Assembly (NCBI GenBank): GCA_964405515.1 | Contig: CAYOOG010000001.1 | Span: forward strand, 1,003-65,002 | Source: an uncultured Alphaproteobacteria bacterium | GTDB lineage: Bacteria > Pseudomonadota > Alphaproteobacteria > JAPYRI01 | Direction of reading: 5' to 3' | DNA: 64,000 nucleotides | In this document: piece by piece, positions 3,032-27,150 of the stretch | How the letters are laid out: each line of letters starts with the position of its first letter | Position numbering within the stretch: position 1 is the stretch's first letter | Position numbers and translations under genes: made by a program | Notes under the pieces: generated by a model | The model's database searches: none | What the model was told of the DNA's origin: nothing | What the model saw: the letters and a program-made list of their open reading frames with translations, nothing else

Positions 3032-4178
3032 TCCGGGCTTCGGGGTCTATATCCACTGGCCCTTCTGCGCCTCCAAGTGCCCTTACTGCGACTTCAACAG
3101 CTACGTGATCGAGGATCCGGACCCGGACCACTGGTCGCGGGCGCTGGTCGCGGAGCTGGATCACTACGCCCGGCAAACACCCGGGCACATGGTGACCTCG
3201 GTATTTTTCGGCGGCGGCACACCGTCGCTGATGGCGCCCCGTGTTGTGGAGGCCGTGTTGGAACGTATTGCCAGGCGCTGGCCCCTGGCGCCGGACGTGG
3301 AAATTTCGCTGGAAGCCAATCCCACAAGCGTTGAGGCGGAGAACTTTTTCGACCTGGCGTCGGTGGGGGTGGACCGGCTGTCGCTCGGCGTACAGGCCCT
3401 GGATGACCAGGCGCTACGGGCCCTCGGCCGCAACCACACGGTGGCCGAGGCCTTGGCCGCTCTTGATGTGGCGCGGGCTCATTTCCCCCGCGCCTCCTTT
3501 GATTTGATCTACGCCCGCCCCGGGCAGTCGCCGGACGGCTGGGCGGGTGAACTGGACGCGGCCCTCGTCCTCGGCCCGGATCACCTGTCCCTCTACCAAT
3601 TGACCATCGAGCCCAAGACACCCTTTCATGCCTTGGAGGCGCGCGGCGATCTGGTTCTGCCGATGGAAGACAATGCCGCCCGCATGTACGAATTGACACA
3701 GGAGCTTTGCGAGGCTGCCGGCCTTCCGGCCTACGAAATCTCAAACCATGCCCGGCCCGGCGAGGAATGCCGCCACAACATGACCTACTGGCGCATGGGC
3801 GAGTACTTGGGCATCGGCCCCGGCGCCCACGGCCGGGTGAAGGTGGACGGCGTGCCTCATGCGACGGTCGCCCACGCCGCGCCCGGCGACTGGCTTCAGG
3901 CGGTGGCCAACGAGGGTTGCGGCGCCCGATCCACGGACCCCTTGAGTATCGAGGAACAGGTCTCGGAATTCCTGCTTATGGGTCTCAGAACCCGCGAGGG
4001 GGTTGACCTGCCGCGGCTTACCAAACTGGCGGGGCGGCCCTGGCGGGACTGCATGTCCGCGCCGGGCCGGGCGCAGTTGCTGGAGGAAGGGTTTCTCAGC
4101 GAAGAGGGGGAGCGTCTCGTGGTCACGCCCCGGGGCCGGCCCTTGCTTAACGGTGTCCTGGCGCGGTTGCTTTTTTGA
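3015..4178 (+). CDS. hemW: Radical SAM family heme chaperone HemW (HemN-like, oxygen-independent coproporphyrinogen III oxidase-like)
   Basis: From the internal Met of ORF 2634..4178. [21 protein letters not shown] is the CxxxCxxC radical-SAM motif, and the rest of the protein resembles HemW/YggW. It overlaps the rdgB stop. Confidence 0.85.
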
Positions 4179-4181
4179 TAG

Positions 4182-4252
4182 CCACCGCCTCCCGCTCCCC
4201 CTTCCCAACCACCCGACGAGCGTACCCTTGGGGTGGTTGGAGCGGGAAAGCG
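4182..4252. repeat. REP-like imperfect palindromic intergenic element, copy A
   Basis: The sequence ccaccgcctcccgctccccc-ttcccaaccaccc-[gacgagcgtaccctt]-ggggtggttgg-agcggga lies between the hemW stop (4178) and the stop of the convergent lpoA-like gene (4274). It is about 75% identical to copy B at 26158-26233. Confidence 0.7.
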
Positions 4253-4273
4253 TAGTCAACAGATAATGCTTTT

Positions 4274-5836
4274 CTAGTTTACCTGTTCTTCGAAGGTGCG
4301 CGGTGCAGGTTGGATAACCATGAGCCGGTTGGGGCGCACCTCCATGACCGCCAAGCCTCGCTCTACCACTCCGTCGGTCCCGAAGCGAAAGATGCCGTCG
4401 GTCCCGGCGAAGCCGCGGGTTGACATAATGGCCGTGCGCGAGAACACGCCCTCGCCCGGCGGCGCCTGGTCGCGGCCCAAGAGCCCGGCGAGCGCCACGG
4501 CGTCGTAGGCCAAGCTGGCGATACGCGGCGCGGCCTGGCCGTATATCTCCTGAAAACGCTGGCGAAATGTGGCGACCGATTGGGGCTCCGGCGCGGCGAA
4601 CCAACCGCCAACCAGGGCGGGCTCGCGGCCAATGTTCTCGTCGTCCCATTGGCCGCTCCCAAGGACGCGAATTTTGGTCGGGTCCACGTCGTAGTAGGGC
4701 AGTAGAAGCGCCACTTTTTGCAATCGCTCGCCGCCTTCCGGCAGGACGACTGCGTCGAACTCCACTTCGCCCAGGGTTTCCAGCCCTTCGAGCCGCTTCA
4801 GCGCTTCGGCGGAAATTTCATCCTCTATTTCCTCCAGGAGCTTTCGCTGCTCGAGAAGCGCGTCGCGGCGCTGGTCGTAACTGGCAAGACTGCGCACGGC
4901 GTCGTGGATCGCCGGGCCCGAGGCCTCTACCTGGTCCGGGTAGACCTCGACCTGGACCACCATGCCCCCGCGCGCCTCGGCGGCACGGTCCAGGGCCCGC
5001 ACGATCACGGCGCCGTAGGGGCTGTCGGGCACCAGGGCGGCTATCCGCCAAAGACCACGGGAGACTGCGTAACCGACCACACGTCCCACCTGCTCCTCGG
5101 GCATGAAGCCCAGCAGGAACACGCCGTCGCCGGCCACGGCGCGGTCGGTGGAAAAGGCAACCATGTTGATCCCGCGGGCGCGGGCCGCAGGGGCCGCGGC
5201 GGCGACCGACGAAGACAGCAGGGGCCCCAATATCAATTCGGCGCCCTCTTCCAGGGCTGCAAGTGCTGCGCTGGCTGCGCCTTCCGGCGTACCGCCGGTA
5301 TCCTTGGGCAAGAGCTCGAGCCGCCGGTCACCGACATCGAACAGGGCCAATTGAGCGGCATCCAGAAGAGCCCGGCCGATATCACGGCTCGCCCCGCTCA
5401 AGGGCAACAGCAGGGCTACCTTCAAGGGCGCCTCCTCGGACGCCAGGGGCGGCACAAGCACCGGCGCCTTGAAAACCGGGCCCAGGTGCGACAATCGAGC
5501 CTCGCTCTCGGGGGCCGGTGAGGCCATGGGCTCGGGGGCTGGCGTCGGTGTGGGCTGCACCACTGCCCGGGGCGGCGCCTTCGCCACCCTTACGGGCGGG
5601 GCCTCGGGCAAGGGCGTCTCGACAGCCCGCTGCGGTGTTGGCCTCGGCGTTTGCCTTGGCGACGCGGCTTTTTCTGGCCAAGCCGCGCGCTCTCTGGGTA
5701 CTGTCGGAGAGCCACAGCTGCTGAGCAAAAGGGCGGCAGCGATCAGGCAAGACGCAGCGCCGGCCAGGGACTGGCTCAGGCGCGGCGATACGGTCAACCA
5801 ACAGAAGTCCAAAAGCAGGAAAAATGGGCGGCGCAC
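4274..5836 (-). CDS. lpoA: LpoA-like penicillin-binding-protein activator / periplasmic-binding-protein type I lipoprotein with a Pro-rich linker
   Basis: The 520 aa ORF has a signal peptide with lipobox LLLSSC and a Pro/Ala-rich low-complexity region. A PBP1 (Leu/Ile/Val-binding-like) domain follows. It is divergent from rsmI and adjacent to yraN and yraP-like genes, as in the E. coli yraL-yraM-yraN-diaA-yraP locus. The true start is probably downstream of 5836. Confidence 0.65.
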   Translation of the reverse strand: MRRPFFLLLDFCWLTVSPRLSQSLAGAASCLIAAALLLSSCGSPTVPRERAAWPEKAASPRQTPRPTPQRAVETPLPEAPPVRVAKAPPRAVVQPTPTPAPEPMASPAPESEARLSHLGPVFKAPVLVPPLASEEAPLKVALLLPLSGASRDIGRALLDAAQLALFDVGDRRLELLPKDTGGTPEGAASAALAALEEGAELILGPLLSSSVAAAAPAARARGINMVAFSTDRAVAGDGVFLLGFMPEEQVGRVVGYAVSRGLWRIAALVPDSPYGAVIVRALDRAAEARGGMVVQVEVYPDQVEASGPAIHDAVRSLASYDQRRDALLEQRKLLEEIEDEISAEALKRLEGLETLGEVEFDAVVLPEGGERLQKVALLLPYYDVDPTKIRVLGSGQWDDENIGREPALVGGWFAAPEPQSVATFRQRFQEIYGQAAPRIASLAYDAVALAGLLGRDQAPPGEGVFSRTAIMSTRGFAGTDGIFRFGTDGVVERGLAVMEVRPNRLMVIQPAPRTFEEQVN

Positions 5837-16406: not shown

Positions 16407-17948
16407 ATGGCTGAAGACTCCTCCCCCGCCAAAAAAAGCGCTCTCGACAAAGACCTGAAAAAGATCGTCCGCCTGGAAAAGGCCGGGCGCAAGGTTGGGC
16501 TTGAAGTCGGCAAGCTGGGCATTGGCGTTCTGTTTCTGCTTTGCGTTCTCGCCTATGTCTTGCTGACATCAAGCGGTGTGGACGGCGCCGTGTACGTTGT
16601 GGCTGCCGGCGTCATCGGCGGCTACATGGCCATGAACATCGGCGCCAACGACGTGGCCAATAACATGGGCCCGGCTGTAGGCTCGAAAGCCCTGCCGATT
16701 ATGGGCGCCTTGTTCATTGCGGCTATTTGCGAAACCGCCGGCGCCTTGATCGCCGGCGGCGATGTGGTCAGGACCATATCCAAGGGCATCATCGACATAA
16801 ACGCAGTGCCCGGTCTCGATGCCTTTATCTGGGCCATGCTGGCGGCGCTTTTGGCGGCGGCGATTTGGGTCAACATCGCAACCTACATCGGCGCGCCGGT
16901 GTCGACCACCCATGCCATTGTTGGCGGGGTCATGGGTGGCGGCGTGGCGGCGGCAGGCTGGTCCGCTGTTGATTGGCTGGTCTTGGGCAAGATCGCCGCA
17001 AGCTGGGTTGTCTCGCCGGTTATGGGCGGGGTCATAGCCGCATTGATCCTCTATGCGGTGAAACGGTTGGTTGTGTTTCAAGATGACCGAATAGCGGCCT
17101 CGCGGCGATGGGTGCCGATTTTCGTCGCCATTATGTCCAGCGCCTTTTCGGTCTATCTGGTGATGAAGGGGCTGAAGCACGTATGGAGGCCCGGCGCTTT
17201 CGGCTTGTTCGGTATCGGGCTGGCGGCCTTTATCTTGACCATTGCCGCCATGCGCCCGGTTATCAGGGCGGCCTCGGCCAAACTAGAAAATAGGCGCAAG
17301 TCCGTCGCCCGCCTGTTCACGGTTCCCCTGATATTCTCAGCGGCGCTCTTGTCCTTTGCTCACGGCGCCAACGATGTGGCCAATGCGGTCGGGCCGTTGG
17401 CGGCCGTGGTCTCGGCGGTCTCCAGCGGTGGTGTCGAGGCCGAGGTGAATGTGCCCTTGTGGGTGCTTGTTGTGGGCGCCGTCGGCATTTCAGCGGGATT
17501 GGCACTCTATGGTCCCAAGCTCATTCGCATGGTGGGTGAAAAGATTACGCGTCTTGATCCCATTCGCGCCTATTGCGTGGCGCTTGCTGCCGCGGTCACG
17601 GTGATTATCGCCTCGGCCTTGGGCCTGCCGGTCAGTTCTACCCACATCGCCGTGGGGGGAATTTTCGGCGTTGGTTTTTTGCGCGAATACCTGACCAACC
17701 GCAATCGCCGGTTAAGTTATGCCGCCGCCGCTGCCGCACCGCAACCCACCGCAGATGACAACGAAGACCTCGATGCGGAGCCCGACCGCAAGGCGACAAA
17801 AAAGGCCCTCAAGAAAGCGCGCAAACGGCGCCTGGTGCGGCGCCAACACTTTTACGCCATCATTATGGCCTGGGTCATCACCGTGCCCAGCGCCGCCATA
17901 ATGTCGGCCATGATCTATTACATGCTGCGCGGCATAATGCTGCCATGA
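16407..17948 (+). CDS. pit: Inorganic phosphate transporter, PiT family
   Basis: From the internal Met MAEDSS. It has duplicated GANDVAN motifs (NIGANDVANNMGPAVGS and FAHGANDVANAVGPLA), as in PHO4/PiT. Confidence 0.85.
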   Translation: MAEDSSPAKKSALDKDLKKIVRLEKAGRKVGLEVGKLGIGVLFLLCVLAYVLLTSSGVDGAVYVVAAGVIGGYMAMNIGANDVANNMGPAVGSKALPIMGALFIAAICETAGALIAGGDVVRTISKGIIDINAVPGLDAFIWAMLAALLAAAIWVNIATYIGAPVSTTHAIVGGVMGGGVAAAGWSAVDWLVLGKIAASWVVSPVMGGVIAALILYAVKRLVVFQDDRIAASRRWVPIFVAIMSSAFSVYLVMKGLKHVWRPGAFGLFGIGLAAFILTIAAMRPVIRAASAKLENRRKSVARLFTVPLIFSAALLSFAHGANDVANAVGPLAAVVSAVSSGGVEAEVNVPLWVLVVGAVGISAGLALYGPKLIRMVGEKITRLDPIRAYCVALAAAVTVIIASALGLPVSSTHIAVGGIFGVGFLREYLTNRNRRLSYAAAAAAPQPTADDNEDLDAEPDRKATKKALKKARKRRLVRRQHFYAIIMAWVITVPSAAIMSAMIYYMLRGIMLP

Positions 17949-18059
17949 TTGTACGGGGAGCTTAGCGACCCGAAACTAGAGAAGTTTTCTTCCCGCATCG
18001 TGGGCGGCACCCCGGCGGCGGACGCCGCCAAGAAATAAATTGCATTTGCCGAGATGGGG

Positions 18060-20333
18060 CTAGAGCAACTTGCGCCCCGCGTCGTGGGCGGCAAAGGCGG
18101 CGAGATTGACCAGGTCGGATACGTTAGTGCCCATGCGCGCAATCTGTGCCGGATGATCAAAACCAATGAGCAATGGCCCGATCACTGTTCCGCCGCCCAG
18201 TTCGCGCATCATTTTGGTGGTGATGTGTGCTGAATCGAGCGCCGGCATGACCAGGATGTTGGCATTGTCGGTCAAGCGGCAAAACGGGTAGAGCTCCCGC
18301 ATGCGGGGGCTGAGGGCGACATCCGCCGACATCTCTCCGTCGTATTCGAAGTCGGGATTGCGAGAATCCAGAATGGCCACCGCTTCGCGGCTACGTTGTG
18401 CCCGCGTGCCCATGGGGCTGCCAAAATTGCCGAAGGACAAGAGCGCTACTCGAGGTTCGTGGCCCAAGCGCCGGGCTTCCGCCGCCGCCTGCATGGCGAT
18501 GTCGGCCAGGTTTTCGGCGCTGGGCTCCGCATGGACGGAGGTATCGGCAACCATGACCGTCCGGTCACGGGCGACGATCATGGACATGCCAAAAACAAGC
18601 GATCCGGTCCGCGGCGCGAAGACCCGTTGCAAATCCTGCAACGAGACGCCGTAGCTGCGGGTTACACCGGTGACCATGGCGTCAGCATTGCCGTGGGCCA
18701 CCATGCAGGCGGCGAAGACATTGCGATCCCAATTAATCATGCGCTGACAGTCACGGAGCAGGAAACCCCGGCGTTGTAATTTGTCATAGAGGAATTCGGC
18801 GTAAGTCGCGTTATCGGCACTTTTCCCGGCATTGTGAATCTCCAGGGTCTCTCCCGGGTCGATACCGATCTGCACCACGGTCTCGCGAATACGGTTCTCG
18901 CGCCCGATCAATACCGGTGTGCCGTAGCCGCTATTGCGGAACGAAAGCGCCGCCCGGATGACCATTTCTTCCTCGCCTTCGGCAAAAACGACGCGCTTGG
19001 GGTTGGCCCTTACTTCGCCGAAGATCAGCGCCAGCGACCCCGCCGTTGGGTCGAGCCGGGCACGCAGGTCCTGGCGGTAGGTGTCCATGTCGATGATCGG
19101 GCGGCGGGCCACGCCCGTGTCCATGGCGGCCTGGGCCACGGCGGGCGGGATATCGGAAATCAGCCGCGGGTCAAAAGGCACTGGGATGATGTAGTTGGGG
19201 CCGTAGCGCAAGCGCTCGCCGCCATAGGCCGCGGCCACTTCGTCCGGCACGTCGCGGCGCGCCAGCTCGGCCAGGGCCTCGGCTGCCGCGCTTTTCATTT
19301 CGTTGTTGATGGTACTGGCGCGAACATCGAGTGCTCCCCTGAAAATATAAGGAAAGCCCAGAACATTGTTCACCTGGTTTGGATAATCGGAACGCCCGGT
19401 GGCGACCACCGCGTCCTCGCGCACCGACCAAATGTCTTCCGGCGAAATTTCCGGGTCCGGATTGGAAAGCGCGAAGATAATCGGCTGGTCGGCCATGGAC
19501 TCGATCATCTTGGGGGTAAAGGCGTCTTTGACCGACAGGCCCAAGAGCACGTCCGAGCCCTTCACGGCGTCTTCAAGCGTGCGGGCGTCGGTTTCCACGG
19601 CGTGGGCGGATTTCCATTGGTTGATGCCGTCTTTTCTGTCCTTGTGGATGACCCCCTTGCTGTCGCAAAGAATGACGTGATCGTGGGGCAGGCTCATGCT
19701 TTTTAGAAGCTCAAGACAGGCGATAGCGGCTGAGCCGGCGCCGTTGACGACAAAGCGTGCTGTCTTCATGTCGCGGTCGGTCAGGTCCAGGGCATTGATA
19801 ATTCCGGCGGCGGTGATGATTGCGGTGCCGTGCTGATCATCGTGGAACACGGGGATGTTCATTTCCTCGCGCAGGCGCTGCTCGATAATAAAACACTCGG
19901 GCGCCTTGATGTCTTCAAGGTTGATGCCGCCGAAGCTGGGACCAAGGAAGCGCACGCAGTTGATGAATTCGTCAACGTCTTCGGTGTCCACTTCGATGTC
20001 TATGGAATCCACGTCGGCGAAACGCTTGAAGAGAACCGCCTTGCCTTCCATCACCGGCTTCGAGGCAAGCGCGCCCAAATTGCCGAGGCCCAGAACCGCG
20101 GTGCCGTTACTGATGACGGCCACCAGGTTTCCCTTGGCGGTAAAATCGTAAGCCAGGCTTTCGTCCTCGGCGATAGCGTTGACCGGTACCGCAACGCCCG
20201 GCGTGTAAGCGAGCGACAGATCACGTTGGGTGGCCATTGGCTTGGTAGCCACGATCTCCAGCTTTCCGGGCCGCTTGCCAGCGTGAAACAGTAAGGCTTC
20301 CTGGTCTGATAATTGAGTCTTCGGCTTGTCCAT
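18060..20333 (-). CDS. maeB: NADP-dependent malic enzyme with a C-terminal phosphotransacetylase-like domain
   Basis: 757 aa. The N-terminal malic enzyme domain contains [10 protein letters not shown]...[18 protein letters not shown]. The C-terminal domain is PTA-like. Confidence 0.9.
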
Positions 20334-23333: not shown

Positions 23334-26141
23334 ATGCCAAGATTTAAGATCAAGGATCAGCGCAAGATCATCGACCGCAAGAAACTGGCGGCGGCGCTCG
23401 ACCAATTGGCCGAGGACCACGGGCCGCAGAGTCTTGAGTTGCGGCGGGCTCTGCTGGCCATGCTCCGCCAGGCGCTGGAAGACGGCCGGGCTGAGATCAA
23501 GAGCCGGTTTGAAGACGGCGCCGGTGGACGGGCCACGGTGTATGCCTATGGCTTTCTGATCGACCAGCTGCTGCGCGCGCTCTTCGACCTGGTGGTCAAC
23601 AAGATCTACCGCGCCGACAATCCGACCAAGGCGGAGCGCCTTTGTCTGACCGCCGTGGGCGGCTACGGGCGCGGTGACCTGGCGCCCCAGTCAGATATCG
23701 ATCTCCTGTTCCTGCTGCCCTACAAGCAAACCCCCTGGGGCGAACAGGTGGTCGAATACATGCTCTATATTCTTTGGGACTTGGGCCTCAAGGTGGGGCA
23801 CGCCAGCCGCTCGGTCGAAGGCTGCCTGAGCTATGCCAAGAAGGACCTGACCATTCGCACCGGGCTGTTGGAAGCTCGATACATTTGGGGCGAGAAAGAA
23901 CTGTTCGACGACCTGAGTGCGAGATTCGCGAAGGAAGTGGTCGCCGGCAAGGGGCCCGAATATATCGACGCCAAGTTGGACGAACGCGATCGCCGTCATC
24001 GGCGGTTTGGGGAATCGCGGTATTTGGTGGAACCCAATATCAAGGAAGGCAAGGGTGGCCTGCGCGATCTCCATACCTTGTTCTGGATTGCCAAGTTTCT
24101 TTACCCCAACGAGCGCATTGACGAACTTGTGGATCAAGAACTGTTGACCAAGTCGGAGGTGCGCTCTTTCGCCAAGGCCGAGGAATTTCTCTGGCGCGTG
24201 CGTTGTGCCCTGCATTACCTAGTCGGTCGGCCGGAGGAACGCCTGACCTTCGATTTGCAGCCCGCCATGGCCCAAGAGCTGGGCTACGAAGACAAGGCCG
24301 GCATAAGCGCCACCGAGCGCTTCATGAAGGACTATTTCCAGAACGCCCAAACCGTTGGCTCACTGACCCGGATATTCTGCGCCTTTCTTGAGGAAAAGCA
24401 CCGCCGCCGCCCACGCTTCAGGCTGCCGCGCTTCGGCCTCAGGTGGCGGGACGTGGAAGGGTTCCGGATCGAAGGCGATCGCGTCAACTTGCGCAGCGAC
24501 GATGACTTCAAGCGCGACCCGGTCAAGCTGATCCGACTTTTTCATTTGGCCCAGGCCCACGATTTTGACATTCATCCCCATGCCTTGACGGTGATGACGC
24601 GAAACCTGGGCCTGATCGACGAAAGCTTGCGCGCGAACGAAGAAGCCAACCGGCTGTTCCTGGAAATTCTGACGTCGACCAAGGCGCCCGACGTAAGTCT
24701 TCGGCGCATGAACGAGGCCGGGGTGCTGGGCCGTTTCCTGCCGGACTTTGGCCAGATCGTGGCGCAGATGCAGCACGACATGTACCACGTCTATACGGTC
24801 GACGAGCATGCCATCCAGGCCATTGGCCTCTTGGCCCGCATCGAAAGCGGCAGCTTGGCCGAGGACCATCCGGTCTCCAACGAGATCATCCATAAAATAC
24901 TTTCCCGCGAAGTGCTTTATATGGCGACCTTCCTCCATGATATCGCCAAGGGCCGCAAGGGCGACCACTCGGAGCTCGGGGCGGAAGTTGCCAACGAAGT
25001 GTGTCCGCGTTTCGGCTTTTCCGAGGGCGAAACCGAAACCATTGCCTGGCTGGTGCGCCATCACCTTCATATGAGCGGTTTTGCCTTCAAGCGGGATTTG
25101 TCGGATCCCAAAACCGTGGCCGATTTTGCCGAAATCGTGCAGAGCCCGGAGCGGCTGCGTCTTCTCTTGGTATTGACCGTCGCCGACATCCGCGCCGTCG
25201 GCCCCGGCGTCTGGAACGGATGGAAAGGCCAGTTGCTGCGCGACCTGTACTATTTGTCTGAAGAAGTACTGTTGGGTGGCGTTGGCGGCCTCGCCGTCAA
25301 GGAGCGCGTGGCCGCCGCCGAGGAGGCTCTGCGCGATCGCCTGTCCGCCTGGGATGATGAAACCTTCACCGCCTATGCGGCGCGTCATTTCCCGCCCTAT
25401 TGGTTATCGGCGGACACCGATCTTCATGAATATCACGCGCAACTGGTGAATCAGGCAGATCGGGACGGCACGCCCCTCACCCTCAAGACCCGCGTCGACA
25501 CTTTCCGCGACGTCACCGAAGTCACGCTCTATGCCGCTGATCATCCGGGACTTTTCGCCCGCATCGCCGGGGCCATGGCCCTGTGCGGCGCCAACATCGT
25601 GGATGCACGCATCGCAACGACAACCGACGGCATGGCCTTGGATGTCTTTTGGATTCAAGATGCTGATCAGCGCGCCTTTGCCCGGCCCGAAAAGTTGGCG
25701 CGTCTCAGCGCCCTTATCGAGCAGACCCTGGCAGGCCGCGTTCGGCCGCACGAAAAATTGGAAGAGGCTCCAAGCCTGCCGACCCGAACCAGCGTCTTTA
25801 CGGTCGCCCCCCGGGTGCTTGTGGACAATGCTGCCAGTGACAGCCACACGCTGATCGAGGTTAATGGCCGCGACCGTCCGGGTTTTCTCTCCCGCGTCAC
25901 TTACGAGTTGTTCCAGCTCAGTCTGACGATTTCCAGCGCCCGCATCGCGACCTATGGCGAACGCGCCGTTGATGTGTTTTACGTGCGCGACATGTTCGGG
26001 CTCAAGATCACCAACCAGTCCAAAATCAAGATCATCGAAAAGCGCCTCTTGGCGGCGCTCAAGGAACTTGCGGGCGACGTGACCGAGGATAAAGACCCCC
26101 CCGCCGGCGACGGCCCGGCAAAGCGCACCGCCGCCATTTAA
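23334..26141 (+). CDS. glnD: Bifunctional [protein-PII] uridylyltransferase/uridylyl-removing enzyme GlnD
   Basis: 935 aa. It has a nucleotidyltransferase domain (LTAVGGYGRGDLAPQSDIDLLFLLP), an HD domain (FLHDIAKGR...H) and two C-terminal ACT domains. Confidence 0.9.
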   Translation: MPRFKIKDQRKIIDRKKLAAALDQLAEDHGPQSLELRRALLAMLRQALEDGRAEIKSRFEDGAGGRATVYAYGFLIDQLLRALFDLVVNKIYRADNPTKAERLCLTAVGGYGRGDLAPQSDIDLLFLLPYKQTPWGEQVVEYMLYILWDLGLKVGHASRSVEGCLSYAKKDLTIRTGLLEARYIWGEKELFDDLSARFAKEVVAGKGPEYIDAKLDERDRRHRRFGESRYLVEPNIKEGKGGLRDLHTLFWIAKFLYPNERIDELVDQELLTKSEVRSFAKAEEFLWRVRCALHYLVGRPEERLTFDLQPAMAQELGYEDKAGISATERFMKDYFQNAQTVGSLTRIFCAFLEEKHRRRPRFRLPRFGLRWRDVEGFRIEGDRVNLRSDDDFKRDPVKLIRLFHLAQAHDFDIHPHALTVMTRNLGLIDESLRANEEANRLFLEILTSTKAPDVSLRRMNEAGVLGRFLPDFGQIVAQMQHDMYHVYTVDEHAIQAIGLLARIESGSLAEDHPVSNEIIHKILSREVLYMATFLHDIAKGRKGDHSELGAEVANEVCPRFGFSEGETETIAWLVRHHLHMSGFAFKRDLSDPKTVADFAEIVQSPERLRLLLVLTVADIRAVGPGVWNGWKGQLLRDLYYLSEEVLLGGVGGLAVKERVAAAEEALRDRLSAWDDETFTAYAARHFPPYWLSADTDLHEYHAQLVNQADRDGTPLTLKTRVDTFRDVTEVTLYAADHPGLFARIAGAMALCGANIVDARIATTTDGMALDVFWIQDADQRAFARPEKLARLSALIEQTLAGRVRPHEKLEEAPSLPTRTSVFTVAPRVLVDNAASDSHTLIEVNGRDRPGFLSRVTYELFQLSLTISSARIATYGERAVDVFYVRDMFGLKITNQSKIKIIEKRLLAALKELAGDVTEDKDPPAGDGPAKRTAAI

Positions 26142-26157
26142 ATACAAAGCCTGGAAG

Positions 26158-26233
26158 CCTCCCGCTCCCCCGGCCCAACCACCCGATGAGTGTACCCTTG
26201 GCGTGGTTGGGCCGGGGGAGCGGGAGGCGGTGG
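26158..26233. repeat. REP-like imperfect palindromic intergenic element, copy B
   Basis: The sequence cctcccgctcccccggcccaaccaccc-[gatgagtgtaccctt]-ggcgtggttgggccgggggagcgggagg-cggtgg has about 27-nt arms with one or two mismatches. It lies between the glnD stop (26141) and the stop of the convergent CDF gene (26239). Confidence 0.75.
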
Positions 26234-26238
26234 TAGAC

Positions 26239-27150
26239 CTATTGTGCCCCCGCCTCGGCCTCGATGAAGACCCGCCGCACTTCGGGGCAGGCGGATTTGA
26301 TCTCGGCGGTCAGCTTGCTCACTAATTCTTCCAACTGCCCCGCCGATAGCTGATCGTCAAAGTCCAGGCTCAGGTTCACAAGTATGTCCTCGGGCCCAAA
26401 GTGCATGGTCAGCAGCTCGTTGATCGCTTCTACGCCCGGCTGGGCCGTGACCAGGCCCTCGATGCGCCGCCGCGCGCTCCGCCCGGCGGCCTCTCCCGTC
26501 AACAGCCCCTTGCACTCGTAGGCCAGAAGCGCGGCTGTAGCGGCCAGTATTACTCCAATGACAATACTCGCGGCCCCGTCCAGCACCGGCAGGTCAAGGT
26601 TGTCGGCCAGGGCCACGCCGGCAAACGCCACCAAGAGGCCGAGCATCGCCGCCGTGTCCTCAAAGAGCACGGTAAAGATTGCCGGATTCTTGGAATCGCG
26701 CACGGCCTCGATCCAGCCCTGCTCGCCCTTGGTGCGGCGGAACTCGGCAAAGGCAACGGCCCAAGCCGCGCTCTCAAATAGAAGCGCCGCGCCAAGGACC
26801 AGGTAATTGATATAGGCGTGGCTGATGGGCTCGGGCGCCTGAACCTTGTGGATGCCTTCGTAAATAGAGATGCCGGCGCCAAGGCCGAATATAAGGATCG
26901 CCACGACGAATGCCCAGAAATAGAGCTCCATTCCGTAGCCAAAGGGATGATCCTCGTCGGCGGGTTTGGCGCTGCGCTTGATACCGTAGAGAAGCAGAAG
27001 CTGGTTGCCGGTGTCGACAAGCGAATGGATGGCCTCGCTCAACATAGCCGAGCTGCCCGTATAGGCAGCGGCGCCGAATTTGGTGACGGCGATAAGGGCG
27101 TTGCCGGCAAGGGCGGCAAAGACGACTTTTTTTGAGGAATGAGCGGCCAT
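26239..27150 (-). CDS. Cation diffusion facilitator (CDF) family divalent metal efflux transporter
   Basis: 303 aa with six TM helices. SEAIHSLVDTGNQLLLLYGI...ADEDHPFGYGMELYF is a CDF signature, and a C-terminal cytoplasmic domain follows. Confidence 0.85.
   Translation of the reverse strand: MAAHSSKKVVFAALAGNALIAVTKFGAAAYTGSSAMLSEAIHSLVDTGNQLLLLYGIKRSAKPADEDHPFGYGMELYFWAFVVAILIFGLGAGISIYEGIHKVQAPEPISHAYINYLVLGAALLFESAAWAVAFAEFRRTKGEQGWIEAVRDSKNPAIFTVLFEDTAAMLGLLVAFAGVALADNLDLPVLDGAASIVIGVILAATAALLAYECKGLLTGEAAGRSARRRIEGLVTAQPGVEAINELLTMHFGPEDILVNLSLDFDDQLSAGQLEELVSKLTAEIKSACPEVRRVFIEAEAGAQ

What the first reader, a model, noticed from the sequence alone, without database searches (positions are those of the whole stretch)
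4182..4252. REP-like palindromic repeat family, copy A, between the convergent hemW and lpoA-like stops
This roughly 75-nt imperfect palindrome has arms tcccgctccccc..cccaaccaccc / ggggtggttgg..agcggga around a 15-nt loop (gacgagcgtaccctt). It is clearly homologous, at about 75% identity including the loop, to a second copy at 26158-26233. Both copies sit in the short gap between two convergent stop codons. That is the hallmark of REP/BIME/RIME-type elements, which act as bidirectional terminators or mRNA stabilisers and as recombination substrates. Copy A has lost part of its right arm, which suggests decay. The arms carry the motif CCCAACCACCC / GGGTGGTTGGG.
Basis: seen in the sequence. Interest (0 to 1): 0.5.

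Follow-up and report, generated by a model that had tools for sequence, protein, structure and literature searches.

The report
Dispersed long-hairpin repeat, decayed copy
This is a partly deleted copy of a GC-rich hairpin repeat that sits after genes in many uncultured Alphaproteobacteria; it is a real, apparently undescribed family of an ordinary kind (REP/REPIN/MITE-like selfish DNA) and lacks the U-tract of a classical terminator.

Summary
Window 4187-4252 (copy A) and 26157-26228 (copy B) are homologous palindromes, and each fills the gap between two convergent stop codons. Copy B is a near-perfect hairpin with 35-bp arms (-71 kcal/mol). Copy A has lost about 8 nt of its right arm (-35 kcal/mol).

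Single Mb-size contigs carry at least 4-8 copies. Host flanks range from 49 to 74% GC.

The architecture is: variable outer arm, CCCGCTCCCCC, 1-4 nt linker, CCCAACCACCC, a roughly 15-nt loop (often GGTACCCT), then the mirror image. Compensatory changes occur at 20 of 33 stem pairs.

- No U-tract follows the hairpin.
- No target-site duplication was found.
- No GTAG/CGTC tag was seen by eye.
- No RAYT-like motif or recurrent neighbouring gene was found.
- Rfam and a limited literature search gave no match.
- Copies favour gene 3' ends and avoid divergent gaps.
- Syntenic relatives differ in presence, position and decay.

Most likely it is non-autonomous, REPIN/MITE-like selfish DNA that folds into a very stable 3' hairpin when transcribed. 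A terminator or stabiliser role is untested. I rate it a new member of a known kind, of moderate interest.

The parts
4187..4252 (.). Copy A of the hairpin repeat. It comprises a left arm (4187-4214, GCCTCCCGCTCCCCC-TT-CCCAACCACCC), a loop (4215-4229, GACGAGCGTACCCTT) and a truncated right arm (4230-4247, GGGGTGGTTGG-AGCGGGA, then AAGCG). About 8 nt of the right arm are deleted.
   Evidence: D5, I5; 42.3 bits, E = 1e-7. The RNA fold is -35.1 kcal/mol on the + strand and -40.1 on the - strand.
4179..4273 (.). The 95-nt gap between the convergent stops of the HemW-like radical-SAM gene (+, stop 4176-4178) and the LppC/LpoA-like periplasmic-binding lipoprotein gene (-, stop 4274-4276). Copy A starts 8 nt after the first stop and ends 21 nt before the second.
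   Evidence: PF04055 + PF06969; PF13458 + PF04348. No canonical terminator or promoter lies in the gap.
26157..26228 (.). Copy B, the intact hairpin. It has 35-nt arms (GCCTCCCGCTCCCCC-GG-CCCAACCACCC... / ...GGCGTGGTTGGG-CC-GGGGGAGCGGGAGGC) with one G/C mismatch next to the loop GATGAGTGTACCCTT.
   Evidence: -71 kcal/mol, z = -10.2; I2; 77.8 bits. The copy is identical in 8 independent assemblies of the same organism, three of which break inside it.
26142..26238 (.). The 97-nt gap between the convergent stops of glnD (+, stop 26139-26141) and a cation-diffusion-facilitator gene (-, stop 26239-26241). Copy B lies 15 nt and 10 nt from the two stops.
   Evidence: In relatives glnD is directly followed by murJ (L136) or by other inserted genes (L134, L135), and none of these carries the element.

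Best explanation
Copy A is a partly deleted member, and copy B an intact member, of a family of non-autonomous long-hairpin repeats (about 70-100 bp, up to 145 bp). The family populates intergenic DNA of uncultured Alphaproteobacteria; the window organism is Rhodospirillales-like.

The unit is a near-perfect palindrome: outer arm, CCCGCTCCCCC, short linker, CCCAACCACCC, a roughly 15-nt asymmetric loop, then the mirror image.

Shown:
- It is multi-copy within genomes. A rough extrapolation gives about one copy per 30-35 kb.
- It occurs in unrelated gene contexts.
- Genome-specific sub-families exist.
- It is gained, lost and decays between syntenic relatives.
- It sits mainly downstream of genes.

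Inferred:
- It spreads as selfish DNA by a mechanism that leaves no target-site duplication of 3 bp or more. This would most plausibly be a hairpin-recognising (single-strand, HUH/Y1-like or similar) enzyme encoded once elsewhere in the genome.
- It survives where insertion is harmless, that is, beyond stop codons and especially between convergent genes.
- The arms are kept complementary either by arm-to-arm correction in the extruded hairpin or by selection for the hairpin the mobilising enzyme needs. This would explain the abundant compensatory changes, which show no strand-specific G-U preference.
- When transcribed from either side it forms an extremely stable stem-loop. That stem-loop probably blocks 3' exonucleases and impedes read-through, as REPs do, but it is not a canonical intrinsic terminator.
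For: Family size and dispersal:
- The 28-mer scan hit one unrelated locus in an Alphaproteobacteria MAG, also between convergent genes.
- The core-only pattern gave at least 120 metagenome stretches. These include 8, 5 and 4 copies on three Mb-size contigs of one sample.
- The covariance model found further copies without the exact core within a few kb of seeds.
- The window has 2 copies in 64 kb.

Architecture and covariation:
- Of 33 stem pairs, 20 show compensatory changes. For example, column 28/75 is GC:40, UA:35, AU:8 with none broken.
- In my hand tally from the table, G-U (66) and A-C (69) mismatches are about equally frequent.

Context:
- Convergent, tandem and divergent contexts number 36:46:12 and 19:17:6 by two heuristics. 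About 70% of element sides face a gene 3' end.

Turnover:
- L015 and L071 are syntenic (about 85% amino-acid identity). They carry the element in different neighbouring gaps, and L015 keeps only a centrally deleted relic at the L071 site.
- One-arm deletions like copy A's recur.

Hosts and sub-families:
- Host flank GC ranges from 49 to 74% while the element stays about 55-78% GC in the copies listed.
- Sub-families are genome-specific. The window's two copies share GCCTCCCGC arms and the GAYGAGYGTACCCTT loop.

Other observations:
- There is no TSD above chance.
- No U-tract follows the stem.
- Assemblies break inside the element.
Against: - No mobilising enzyme was identified. There is no RAYT-like HUH...Y motif in about 0.7 Mb of held sequence and no recurrent neighbouring protein family. 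Such a gene would, however, be single-copy per genome, and whole genomes were not available.
- Mobility is inferred from distribution, not observed.
- The strong conservation of the C/G tracts and of the loop motif across hosts of very different GC content is unusual for REP-type families, which tend to be lineage-specific. It could point to a host-level function instead.
- No transcript data exist for any copy.
- Loop orientation shows no link to gene direction or to GC skew, so it gives no handle on strand-specific mechanisms.
Confidence: 0.6

Rival explanations
1. It is a host-selected regulatory element. On this view the hairpin is maintained because it ends or stabilises transcripts of both convergent genes, acting as an 'I-shaped', U-less terminator, a 3'-exonuclease barrier, or a ribosome-stalling REP close to stop codons. 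Its repetition would reflect recruitment rather than selfish spread.
For: - In the window each gap (95 and 97 nt) contains no other terminator-like structure.
- The hairpins lie 8-21 nt from the stop codons.
- Copies are enriched at gene 3' ends and convergent gaps.
- The hairpin is very stable on both strands.
- REPs are reported to stabilise mRNA, attenuate transcription and stall ribosomes when within 15 nt of a stop (as summarised in PMC5082802).
Against: - A U-tract follows the stem in 0 of 81 and 3 of 81 copies.
- Clear canonical, even bidirectional, terminators sit beside the element in L001, L114, L124 and others, so the element is not needed for termination there.
- Copies also occur in tandem and some divergent gaps, and in clusters less than 1 kb apart.
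- Decayed copies such as A persist.
- Relatives lack the element at the same sites.
Confidence: 0.22
2. It is a conserved structured nucleic-acid element with a specific trans-acting partner. Candidates are a protein-binding cruciform, a hairpin/G-quadruplex (i-motif) switch, or a small RNA. The conserved C/G tracts and the GGTACCCT loop would be the recognised features.
For: - Stem positions outside the search pattern are not equally variable. The C tracts are nearly invariant (76-82 of 83), while the tract-separating positions vary freely but are never C.
- A canonical G3+N1-7 x4 motif is present in the 3' arm of both strands in 80 and 81 of 84 complete copies.
- The loop keeps TACCC in 86 of 124 copies.
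- A sub-family forms a 4-way junction with two small covarying hairpins and a GGGTGCG/CGCACC closing stem.
Against: - The full hairpin (-70 kcal/mol) out-competes any G4. A G4 is predicted only for an isolated arm.
- No Rfam family matches; there are only sub-threshold generic miRNA-hairpin hits.
- Loop orientation flips relative to flanking modules and to genes.
- No promoter-like site lies nearby.
- High copy number, decay and presence/absence variation are typical of selfish repeats.
- Tract conservation could equally reflect recognition by a mobilising enzyme.
Confidence: 0.1
3. It is an integron attC site or the terminal hairpin of an insertion sequence. The mid-stem GCCCAAC...GTTGGGC of copy B fits the attC R''/R' consensus RYYYAAC...GTTRRRY.
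For: The sequence of copy B contains GCCCAAC and GTTGGGC in inverted orientation.
Against: - The motif lies in the middle of a perfectly paired 35-bp stem, not at its base.
- There are no extrahelical bases.
- The first position is T or A in many copies, in the linker variants GT, CT and TA.
- Neighbours are housekeeping genes, not cassette arrays, and no integrase or transposase recurs nearby.
- There is no TSD.
Confidence: 0.02

Closest known systems
REPINs (REP doublets forming hairpins) mobilised by RAYT Y1 transposases
   Same: - The element is a 70-110 bp hairpin-forming, non-coding, extragenic repeat.
- It is present at tens to hundreds of copies.
- Sub-families are genome-specific.
- Decay produces half elements.
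- There is no target-site duplication.
- Compensatory evolution occurs in the stem.
   Different: - Each arm is a C-rich, non-palindromic sequence rather than a REP with its own short hairpin.
- No conserved GTAG/CGTC tetranucleotide was seen.
- No RAYT gene was found in the held sequence.
- The same core is shared by hosts spanning 49-74% GC, whereas REPIN-RAYT systems are described as lineage-specific and vertically inherited (bioRxiv 10.1101/2022.05.22.493013 abstract).
Bacterial MITEs (e.g. Correia/NEMIS, ERIC, Nezha)
   Same: It is a small non-autonomous repeat with inverted-repeat ends. It folds into a long hairpin, is inserted near genes, and is co-transcribed with them.
   Different: - There is no TSD above chance.
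- No parent IS was found.
- The whole element is one palindrome, rather than TIRs around an unrelated core.
Br-REP1/Br-REP2 of Bradyrhizobium and CGTC-tagged REPs of Alphaproteobacteria (PMC5082802; PMC3733652)
   Same: These are alphaproteobacterial intergenic palindromic repeats found in overlapping 3' UTRs of convergent genes. They are sometimes flanked by further palindromes, giving mosaic forms.
   Different: - The published consensus sequences are unrelated (Br-REP1 is CCGGAATCTCGAGATTCCGG).
- Their stems are 8-9 bp with 4-5 nt loops, against 33-45 bp stems with a roughly 15-nt loop here.
Intrinsic (Rho-independent) bidirectional terminators
   Same: It is a GC-rich hairpin centred between convergent stop codons.
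   Different: - No U-tract or A-tract flanks the stem.
- The stem is far longer than in typical terminators.
- Some loci have a separate canonical terminator next to the element.

Membership tests
REP / BIME (classical repetitive extragenic palindromes) | The unit is a short (20-40 bp) imperfect palindrome. | tested here: not met
   The unit is a single 70-100 bp palindrome. Individual arms (e.g. GGCCCGCTCCCCCGTCCCAACCACCC) are C-rich and not self-complementary.
REP / BIME (classical repetitive extragenic palindromes) | A conserved GTAG or CGTC tetranucleotide at one end (PMC3733652). | tested here: inconclusive
   By eye, the flanks printed share no obvious tag. CGTC occurs only inside the stem of the 'GT-linker' sub-family and is replaced by GG, CT, TG or TA in others. 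No dedicated tetranucleotide count was run.
REP / BIME (classical repetitive extragenic palindromes) | High copy number, extragenic, mostly at gene 3' ends. | tested here: met
   See for copy number and for context. Whole-genome counts were not obtainable; the figure of about one copy per 30-35 kb is an extrapolation.
REPIN-RAYT system | A single-copy RAYT (Y1/HUH transposase) gene flanked by the repeats in the same genome. | not testable with these tools
   There was no HUH...Y motif hit in about 0.7 Mb of held DNA and no recurrent neighbouring gene. Complete carrier genomes could not be fetched.
MITE (DDE-transposase dependent) | Target-site duplication flanking terminal inverted repeats. 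| tested here: not met
   The distribution of direct-repeat lengths at the junctions equals that of shifted controls. A 2-bp TSD cannot be excluded.
Intrinsic terminator | A GC-rich hairpin followed within 0-2 nt by a U-tract. | tested here: not met
   At least 5 T in the 9 nt after the stem occurred in 0 of 81 copies on the canonical strand and 3 of 81 on the other. Background is 2.9%. The tool scan finds none at either window copy.
Integron attC | R''-L''...L'-R' sites at the base of an imperfect hairpin with extrahelical bases, arranged in cassette arrays next to intI. | tested here: not met
   The RYYYAAC/GTTRRRY-like motif is mid-stem and not conserved at its first base. The stem is perfect and the neighbours are housekeeping genes.
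Any Rfam RNA family | A score at or above the family gathering threshold. | tested here: not met
   There were no hits in the window at gathering thresholds. Five loci at E <= 1 gave only generic miRNA-precursor hairpin hits, all below threshold.

The most novel reading that the evidence does not exclude
The element would not be a lineage-bound REP but a broadly shared hairpin element, with the same 24-nt core and loop motif in hosts from 49 to 74% GC. It would be mobilised or bound by a so far unidentified hairpin-specific protein. That protein would recognise the invariant C/G tracts and the GGTACCCT loop, and would not be a classical RAYT. Under this reading the family defines a new repeat-enzyme system, or a conserved cruciform/G4-capable regulatory site, in marine and sediment Alphaproteobacteria.
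Probability: 0.15. Interest if true: 0.65.

Novelty: new member of a known kind. Interest (0 to 1): 0.4.

Why it matters
- The family is a convenient marker and a source of assembly breaks in MAGs of uncultured Alphaproteobacteria.
- It shows that REPIN-like hairpin populations exist well outside the Gammaproteobacteria where they were defined.
- It has unusual features that could lead to the enzyme that moves it: non-palindromic C-rich arms, no obvious terminal tag, and a core conserved across hosts of very different GC content.
- For annotating this window, the two hairpins should be read as repeat insertions. They should not be taken as evidence of dedicated terminators, small RNAs or recombination sites.

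Tried and rejected
- **Genome scan.** I used the single genome-contig scan on a loop-specific 28-mer. It gave only one hit, so the taxonomic breadth among reference genomes could not be measured.
- **PLSDB plasmids.** blastn with copy B found no match.
- **Literature.** Searches for the core and arm sequences found only unrelated human, aptamer and primer papers. Topic searches found REP/RAYT work but not this family.
- **Neighbouring genes.** All-vs-all clustering of 2,467 ORFs from the loci found only generic families, with no transposase.
- **RAYT motif.** The regex found nothing.
- **Orthologous empty sites for the window copies.** The closest CDF homologues (70% identity) are in unrelated contexts. 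TrpS relatives (74-76% identity) are syntenic, but the glnD-murJ interval differs and lacks the element. No clean filled/empty pair was obtained for the window itself.
- **Taxonomy from translated-element peptides.** The first query was too short. The second returned only 2 unnamed hits.
- **Replication-strand bias.** Loop orientation against local GC skew was 36:28, not significant.
- **G-quadruplex switch.** The motif is present, but the hairpin is about 45-60 kcal/mol more stable than the isolated arms fold.
- **attC reading.** Rejected on anatomy.
- **Four-way-junction RNA.** Its full form (both closing-stem motifs present) was found in only 4 of 95 copies.

Full report
**Observation**

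It has a left arm GCCTCCCGCTCCCCC-TT-CCCAACCACCC, a 15-nt loop GACGAGCGTACCCTT, and a right arm GGGGTGGTTGG-AGCGGGA that lacks about 8 nt.

The second copy at 26157-26228 is an almost perfect inverted repeat with 35-nt arms (I2). The two copies are 86% identical over 66 ungapped nt (D5) and 81% per column in alignment.

As RNA, copy B folds at -71 kcal/mol (z = -10.2) and copy A at -35 kcal/mol (z = -3.9). Values on the opposite strand are similar.

Both copies fill gaps between convergent stop codons:
- HemW-like radical-SAM (stop 4178) against an LppC/LpoA-like periplasmic-binding protein (stop 4274).
- GlnD (stop 26141) against a cation-diffusion-facilitator (stop 26239) (Pfam).

A's left flank CCACCGCC and B's right flank GGCGGTGG are complementary, so the ancestral arms reached at least 40 nt.

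**Is it a family?**

Inside the 64-kb window there are only these two copies. This holds for motif searches and for a full covariance-model scan, where the next hit has E = 0.29.

Outside the window the picture changes:
- A 28-mer covering inner stem and loop hit one Alphaproteobacteria MAG (L001). The surrounding genes are unrelated, the site is again between convergent genes, and the stem carries a compensated change, GG/CC to GT/AC.
The samples are varied; some records are labelled marine sediment.
- Three Mb-size contigs of one sample carry at least 8, 5 and 4 exact-core copies.
- The covariance model finds further copies without the exact core within a few kb of the seeds.

From the extra copies in held flanks, and from the window itself (2 in 64 kb), I extrapolate about one copy per 30-35 kb. 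That implies on the order of 100 per genome. This figure is an inference, not a count.

Eight assemblies of the window organism carry an identical copy B, and three of those contigs end inside it. That is typical of repeats. IMG/VR holds only two contigs with the element, and both show the same locus. PLSDB plasmids hold none.

**Anatomy**

Aligning 83 distinct complete copies gives this layout:
- a variable outer arm of 5-20 nt, exceptionally more (total palindrome up to 145 bp in L052);
- (R)GCC(R/S)CCCGCTCCCCC;
- a 1-4 nt linker (G, GG, GT, CT, TG, TTG, TA, A);
- CCCAACCACCC;
- a loop of about 15 nt whose 3' part is usually GGTACCCT (TACCC in 86 of 124 copies);
- the exact mirror image.

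RNAalifold predicts one 33-pair helix, and 20 of the pairs show compensatory double changes. Column 28/75, for example, is GC 40, UA 35, AU 8 with none broken. In my tally from that table, G-U and A-C mismatches are about equally common (66 against 69). There is therefore no sign that one particular strand is selected as RNA.

The C tracts (G tracts on the other arm) are almost invariant, although they were not part of the search pattern. The tract-separating positions vary but are never C.

Each 3' arm, on both strands, matches the canonical G-quadruplex pattern in 80 and 81 of 84 copies. However, the full hairpin is about 45-60 kcal/mol more stable than the isolated arms fold.

A small sub-family is flanked by two short covarying hairpins and closed by GGGTGCG/CGCACC, giving a 4-way junction. 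Four of 95 copies carry both closing-stem motifs.

**What it is not**

- Rfam has no matching family. There were no hits at gathering thresholds in the window, and five loci gave only sub-threshold generic miRNA-hairpin hits.
- It is not a canonical intrinsic terminator. A U-rich tract follows the stem in 0 of 81 copies on one strand and 3 of 81 on the other, against a 2.9% background. The terminator scan finds none at either window copy.
- Several loci have a textbook, even bidirectional, terminator immediately beside the element: L001, L114 and L124.
- It is not a classical REP. The arms are not short palindromes, and by eye no GTAG/CGTC tag marks an end. The definition is taken from PMC3733652; no dedicated tetranucleotide count was run.
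- It is not a TSD-forming MITE.
- The attC-like RYYYAAC/GTTRRRY motif of copy B lies mid-stem and is not conserved.
- No RAYT-like HUH...Y motif and no recurrent neighbouring protein occur in about 0.7 Mb of held sequence. Where two copies bracket a gene (L072), that gene is an ordinary dehydrogenase.

**Context and dynamics**

Two rough ORF/GC3 heuristics give convergent: tandem: divergent contexts of 36:46:12 and 19:17:6. About 70% of element sides face a gene 3' end. Loop orientation shows no preference for the direction of the upstream gene or for local GC skew.

L015 and L071 come from related organisms (about 85% amino-acid identity, syntenic). L071 has the element downstream of a small ORF. 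At that site L015 has only a relic with the central hairpin deleted, and it carries a full copy in the neighbouring gap.

One-arm deletions like that of copy A recur in L054 and L093. Sub-families are genome- or sample-specific. The window's two copies share GCCTCCCGC arms and the GAYGAGYGTACCCTT loop.

Host flanks range from 49 to 74% GC, while the listed elements stay about 55-78% GC.

The window organism is an uncultured alphaproteobacterium. Its TrpS is at most 76% identical to anything else, and the best named hits are Rhodospirillales MAGs. In relatives, glnD is followed directly by murJ (L136) or by other inserted genes (L134, L135). No element occurs in those 96 kb. The CDF gene plus copy B therefore sit in a variable spot.

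**Interpretation**

The best-supported reading is a non-autonomous, REPIN/MITE-like selfish hairpin repeat. It proliferates within genomes, persists where insertion is harmless (beyond stop codons, above all between convergent genes), and decays by arm deletions.

The lack of a TSD of 3 bp or more and the dependence on a long perfect hairpin point to a hairpin-recognising, probably single-strand-acting, enzyme encoded elsewhere. This step is inferred.

Arm complementarity may be kept by repair within the extruded hairpin or by selection for mobilisability. When transcribed the element must form a very stable 3' stem-loop, so a REP-like stabiliser or roadblock effect is plausible. In the window it is the only structure in either gap, lying 8-21 nt from the stops. 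That role is untested, and canonical termination is not supported.

Rival readings are listed with their evidence in the rival-explanations section: a selected terminator/stabiliser, a conserved protein-binding or G4-capable element, and attC or an IS end.

**Novelty and score**

I found no description of this family in Rfam or in the searchable literature. That search was limited.

It belongs to a well-known kind of element, the dispersed intergenic palindromic repeats, so I rate it a new member of a known kind. The unusual points are non-palindromic C-rich arms, no evident tag, invariant C/G tracts and loop motif, and a core shared across hosts of very different GC content. These keep a modest chance (about 0.15) that a new repeat-enzyme or protein-binding system lies behind it.

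Interest: 0.4.

Noticed in passing
window 17976-18009 and 18060-18093: Two 34-nt direct repeats (79% identical, CTAGAG...CCCGCRTCGTGGGCGGCA) lie 84 nt apart (D19). A 14-nt inverted repeat lies just upstream at 17856-17908 (I23). This may be a regulatory region.
   Followed up: no
window 26142-27150 versus L134, L135, L136: The glnD-murJ interval is a variable spot. Relatives have glnD directly followed by murJ (L136) or RraA-like plus PEP-mutase genes in between (L134, L135). The window instead has an oppositely oriented CDF transporter whose nearest homologues (70% identity) sit in unrelated contexts. This suggests horizontal acquisition.
   Followed up: partly
L004, L008, L009 (contig ends) and about 15 of the 124 metagenome copies: Contigs of independent assemblies end inside the hairpin, so the element fragments short-read assemblies.
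   Followed up: partly
L015 6784-6942; L071 1279-1423; L067; L107 (also L025, L122): In one sub-family the main hairpin is flanked by two short hairpins with loops ATCC/GGAT and GGAG/CTCC and covarying stems. It is closed by GGGTGCG/CGCACC, giving a predicted 4-way junction of about 145-165 nt. Four of 95 copies carry both closing-stem motifs. The small hairpins may be a separate REP-like family forming mosaics.
   Followed up: partly
L137 9100-9290 and L138 1660-1850 (IMG/VR contigs): An intact copy lies between the left arm and the right-arm remnant of a second, broken copy, and a short flank (GCCTTCCGGGCA) is repeated. This indicates a nested insertion or a tandem duplication with deletion.
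   Followed up: no
L072 64-145 and 1076-1131; also L023, L055, L018, L076, L043, L110: Copies often occur in pairs 0.25-5 kb apart. In L072 two copies bracket a single 3-hydroxyisobutyrate-dehydrogenase-like gene.
   Followed up: partly
L001 5995-6060 (shown on the - strand): A canonical bidirectional intrinsic terminator (A-run, stem-loop, T-run) lies about 25 nt from the element in the same convergent gap.
   Followed up: yes
All complete copies; window 26198-26228 and the complement of 4187-4214: Both arms carry four or more C3+/G3+ tracts with variable spacers, which is the canonical G4/i-motif pattern. The spacers are never C, so the tracts never merge. Copy B's + strand lacks one tract because of the GGCG mismatch. 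The hairpin is predicted to dominate energetically.
   Followed up: partly
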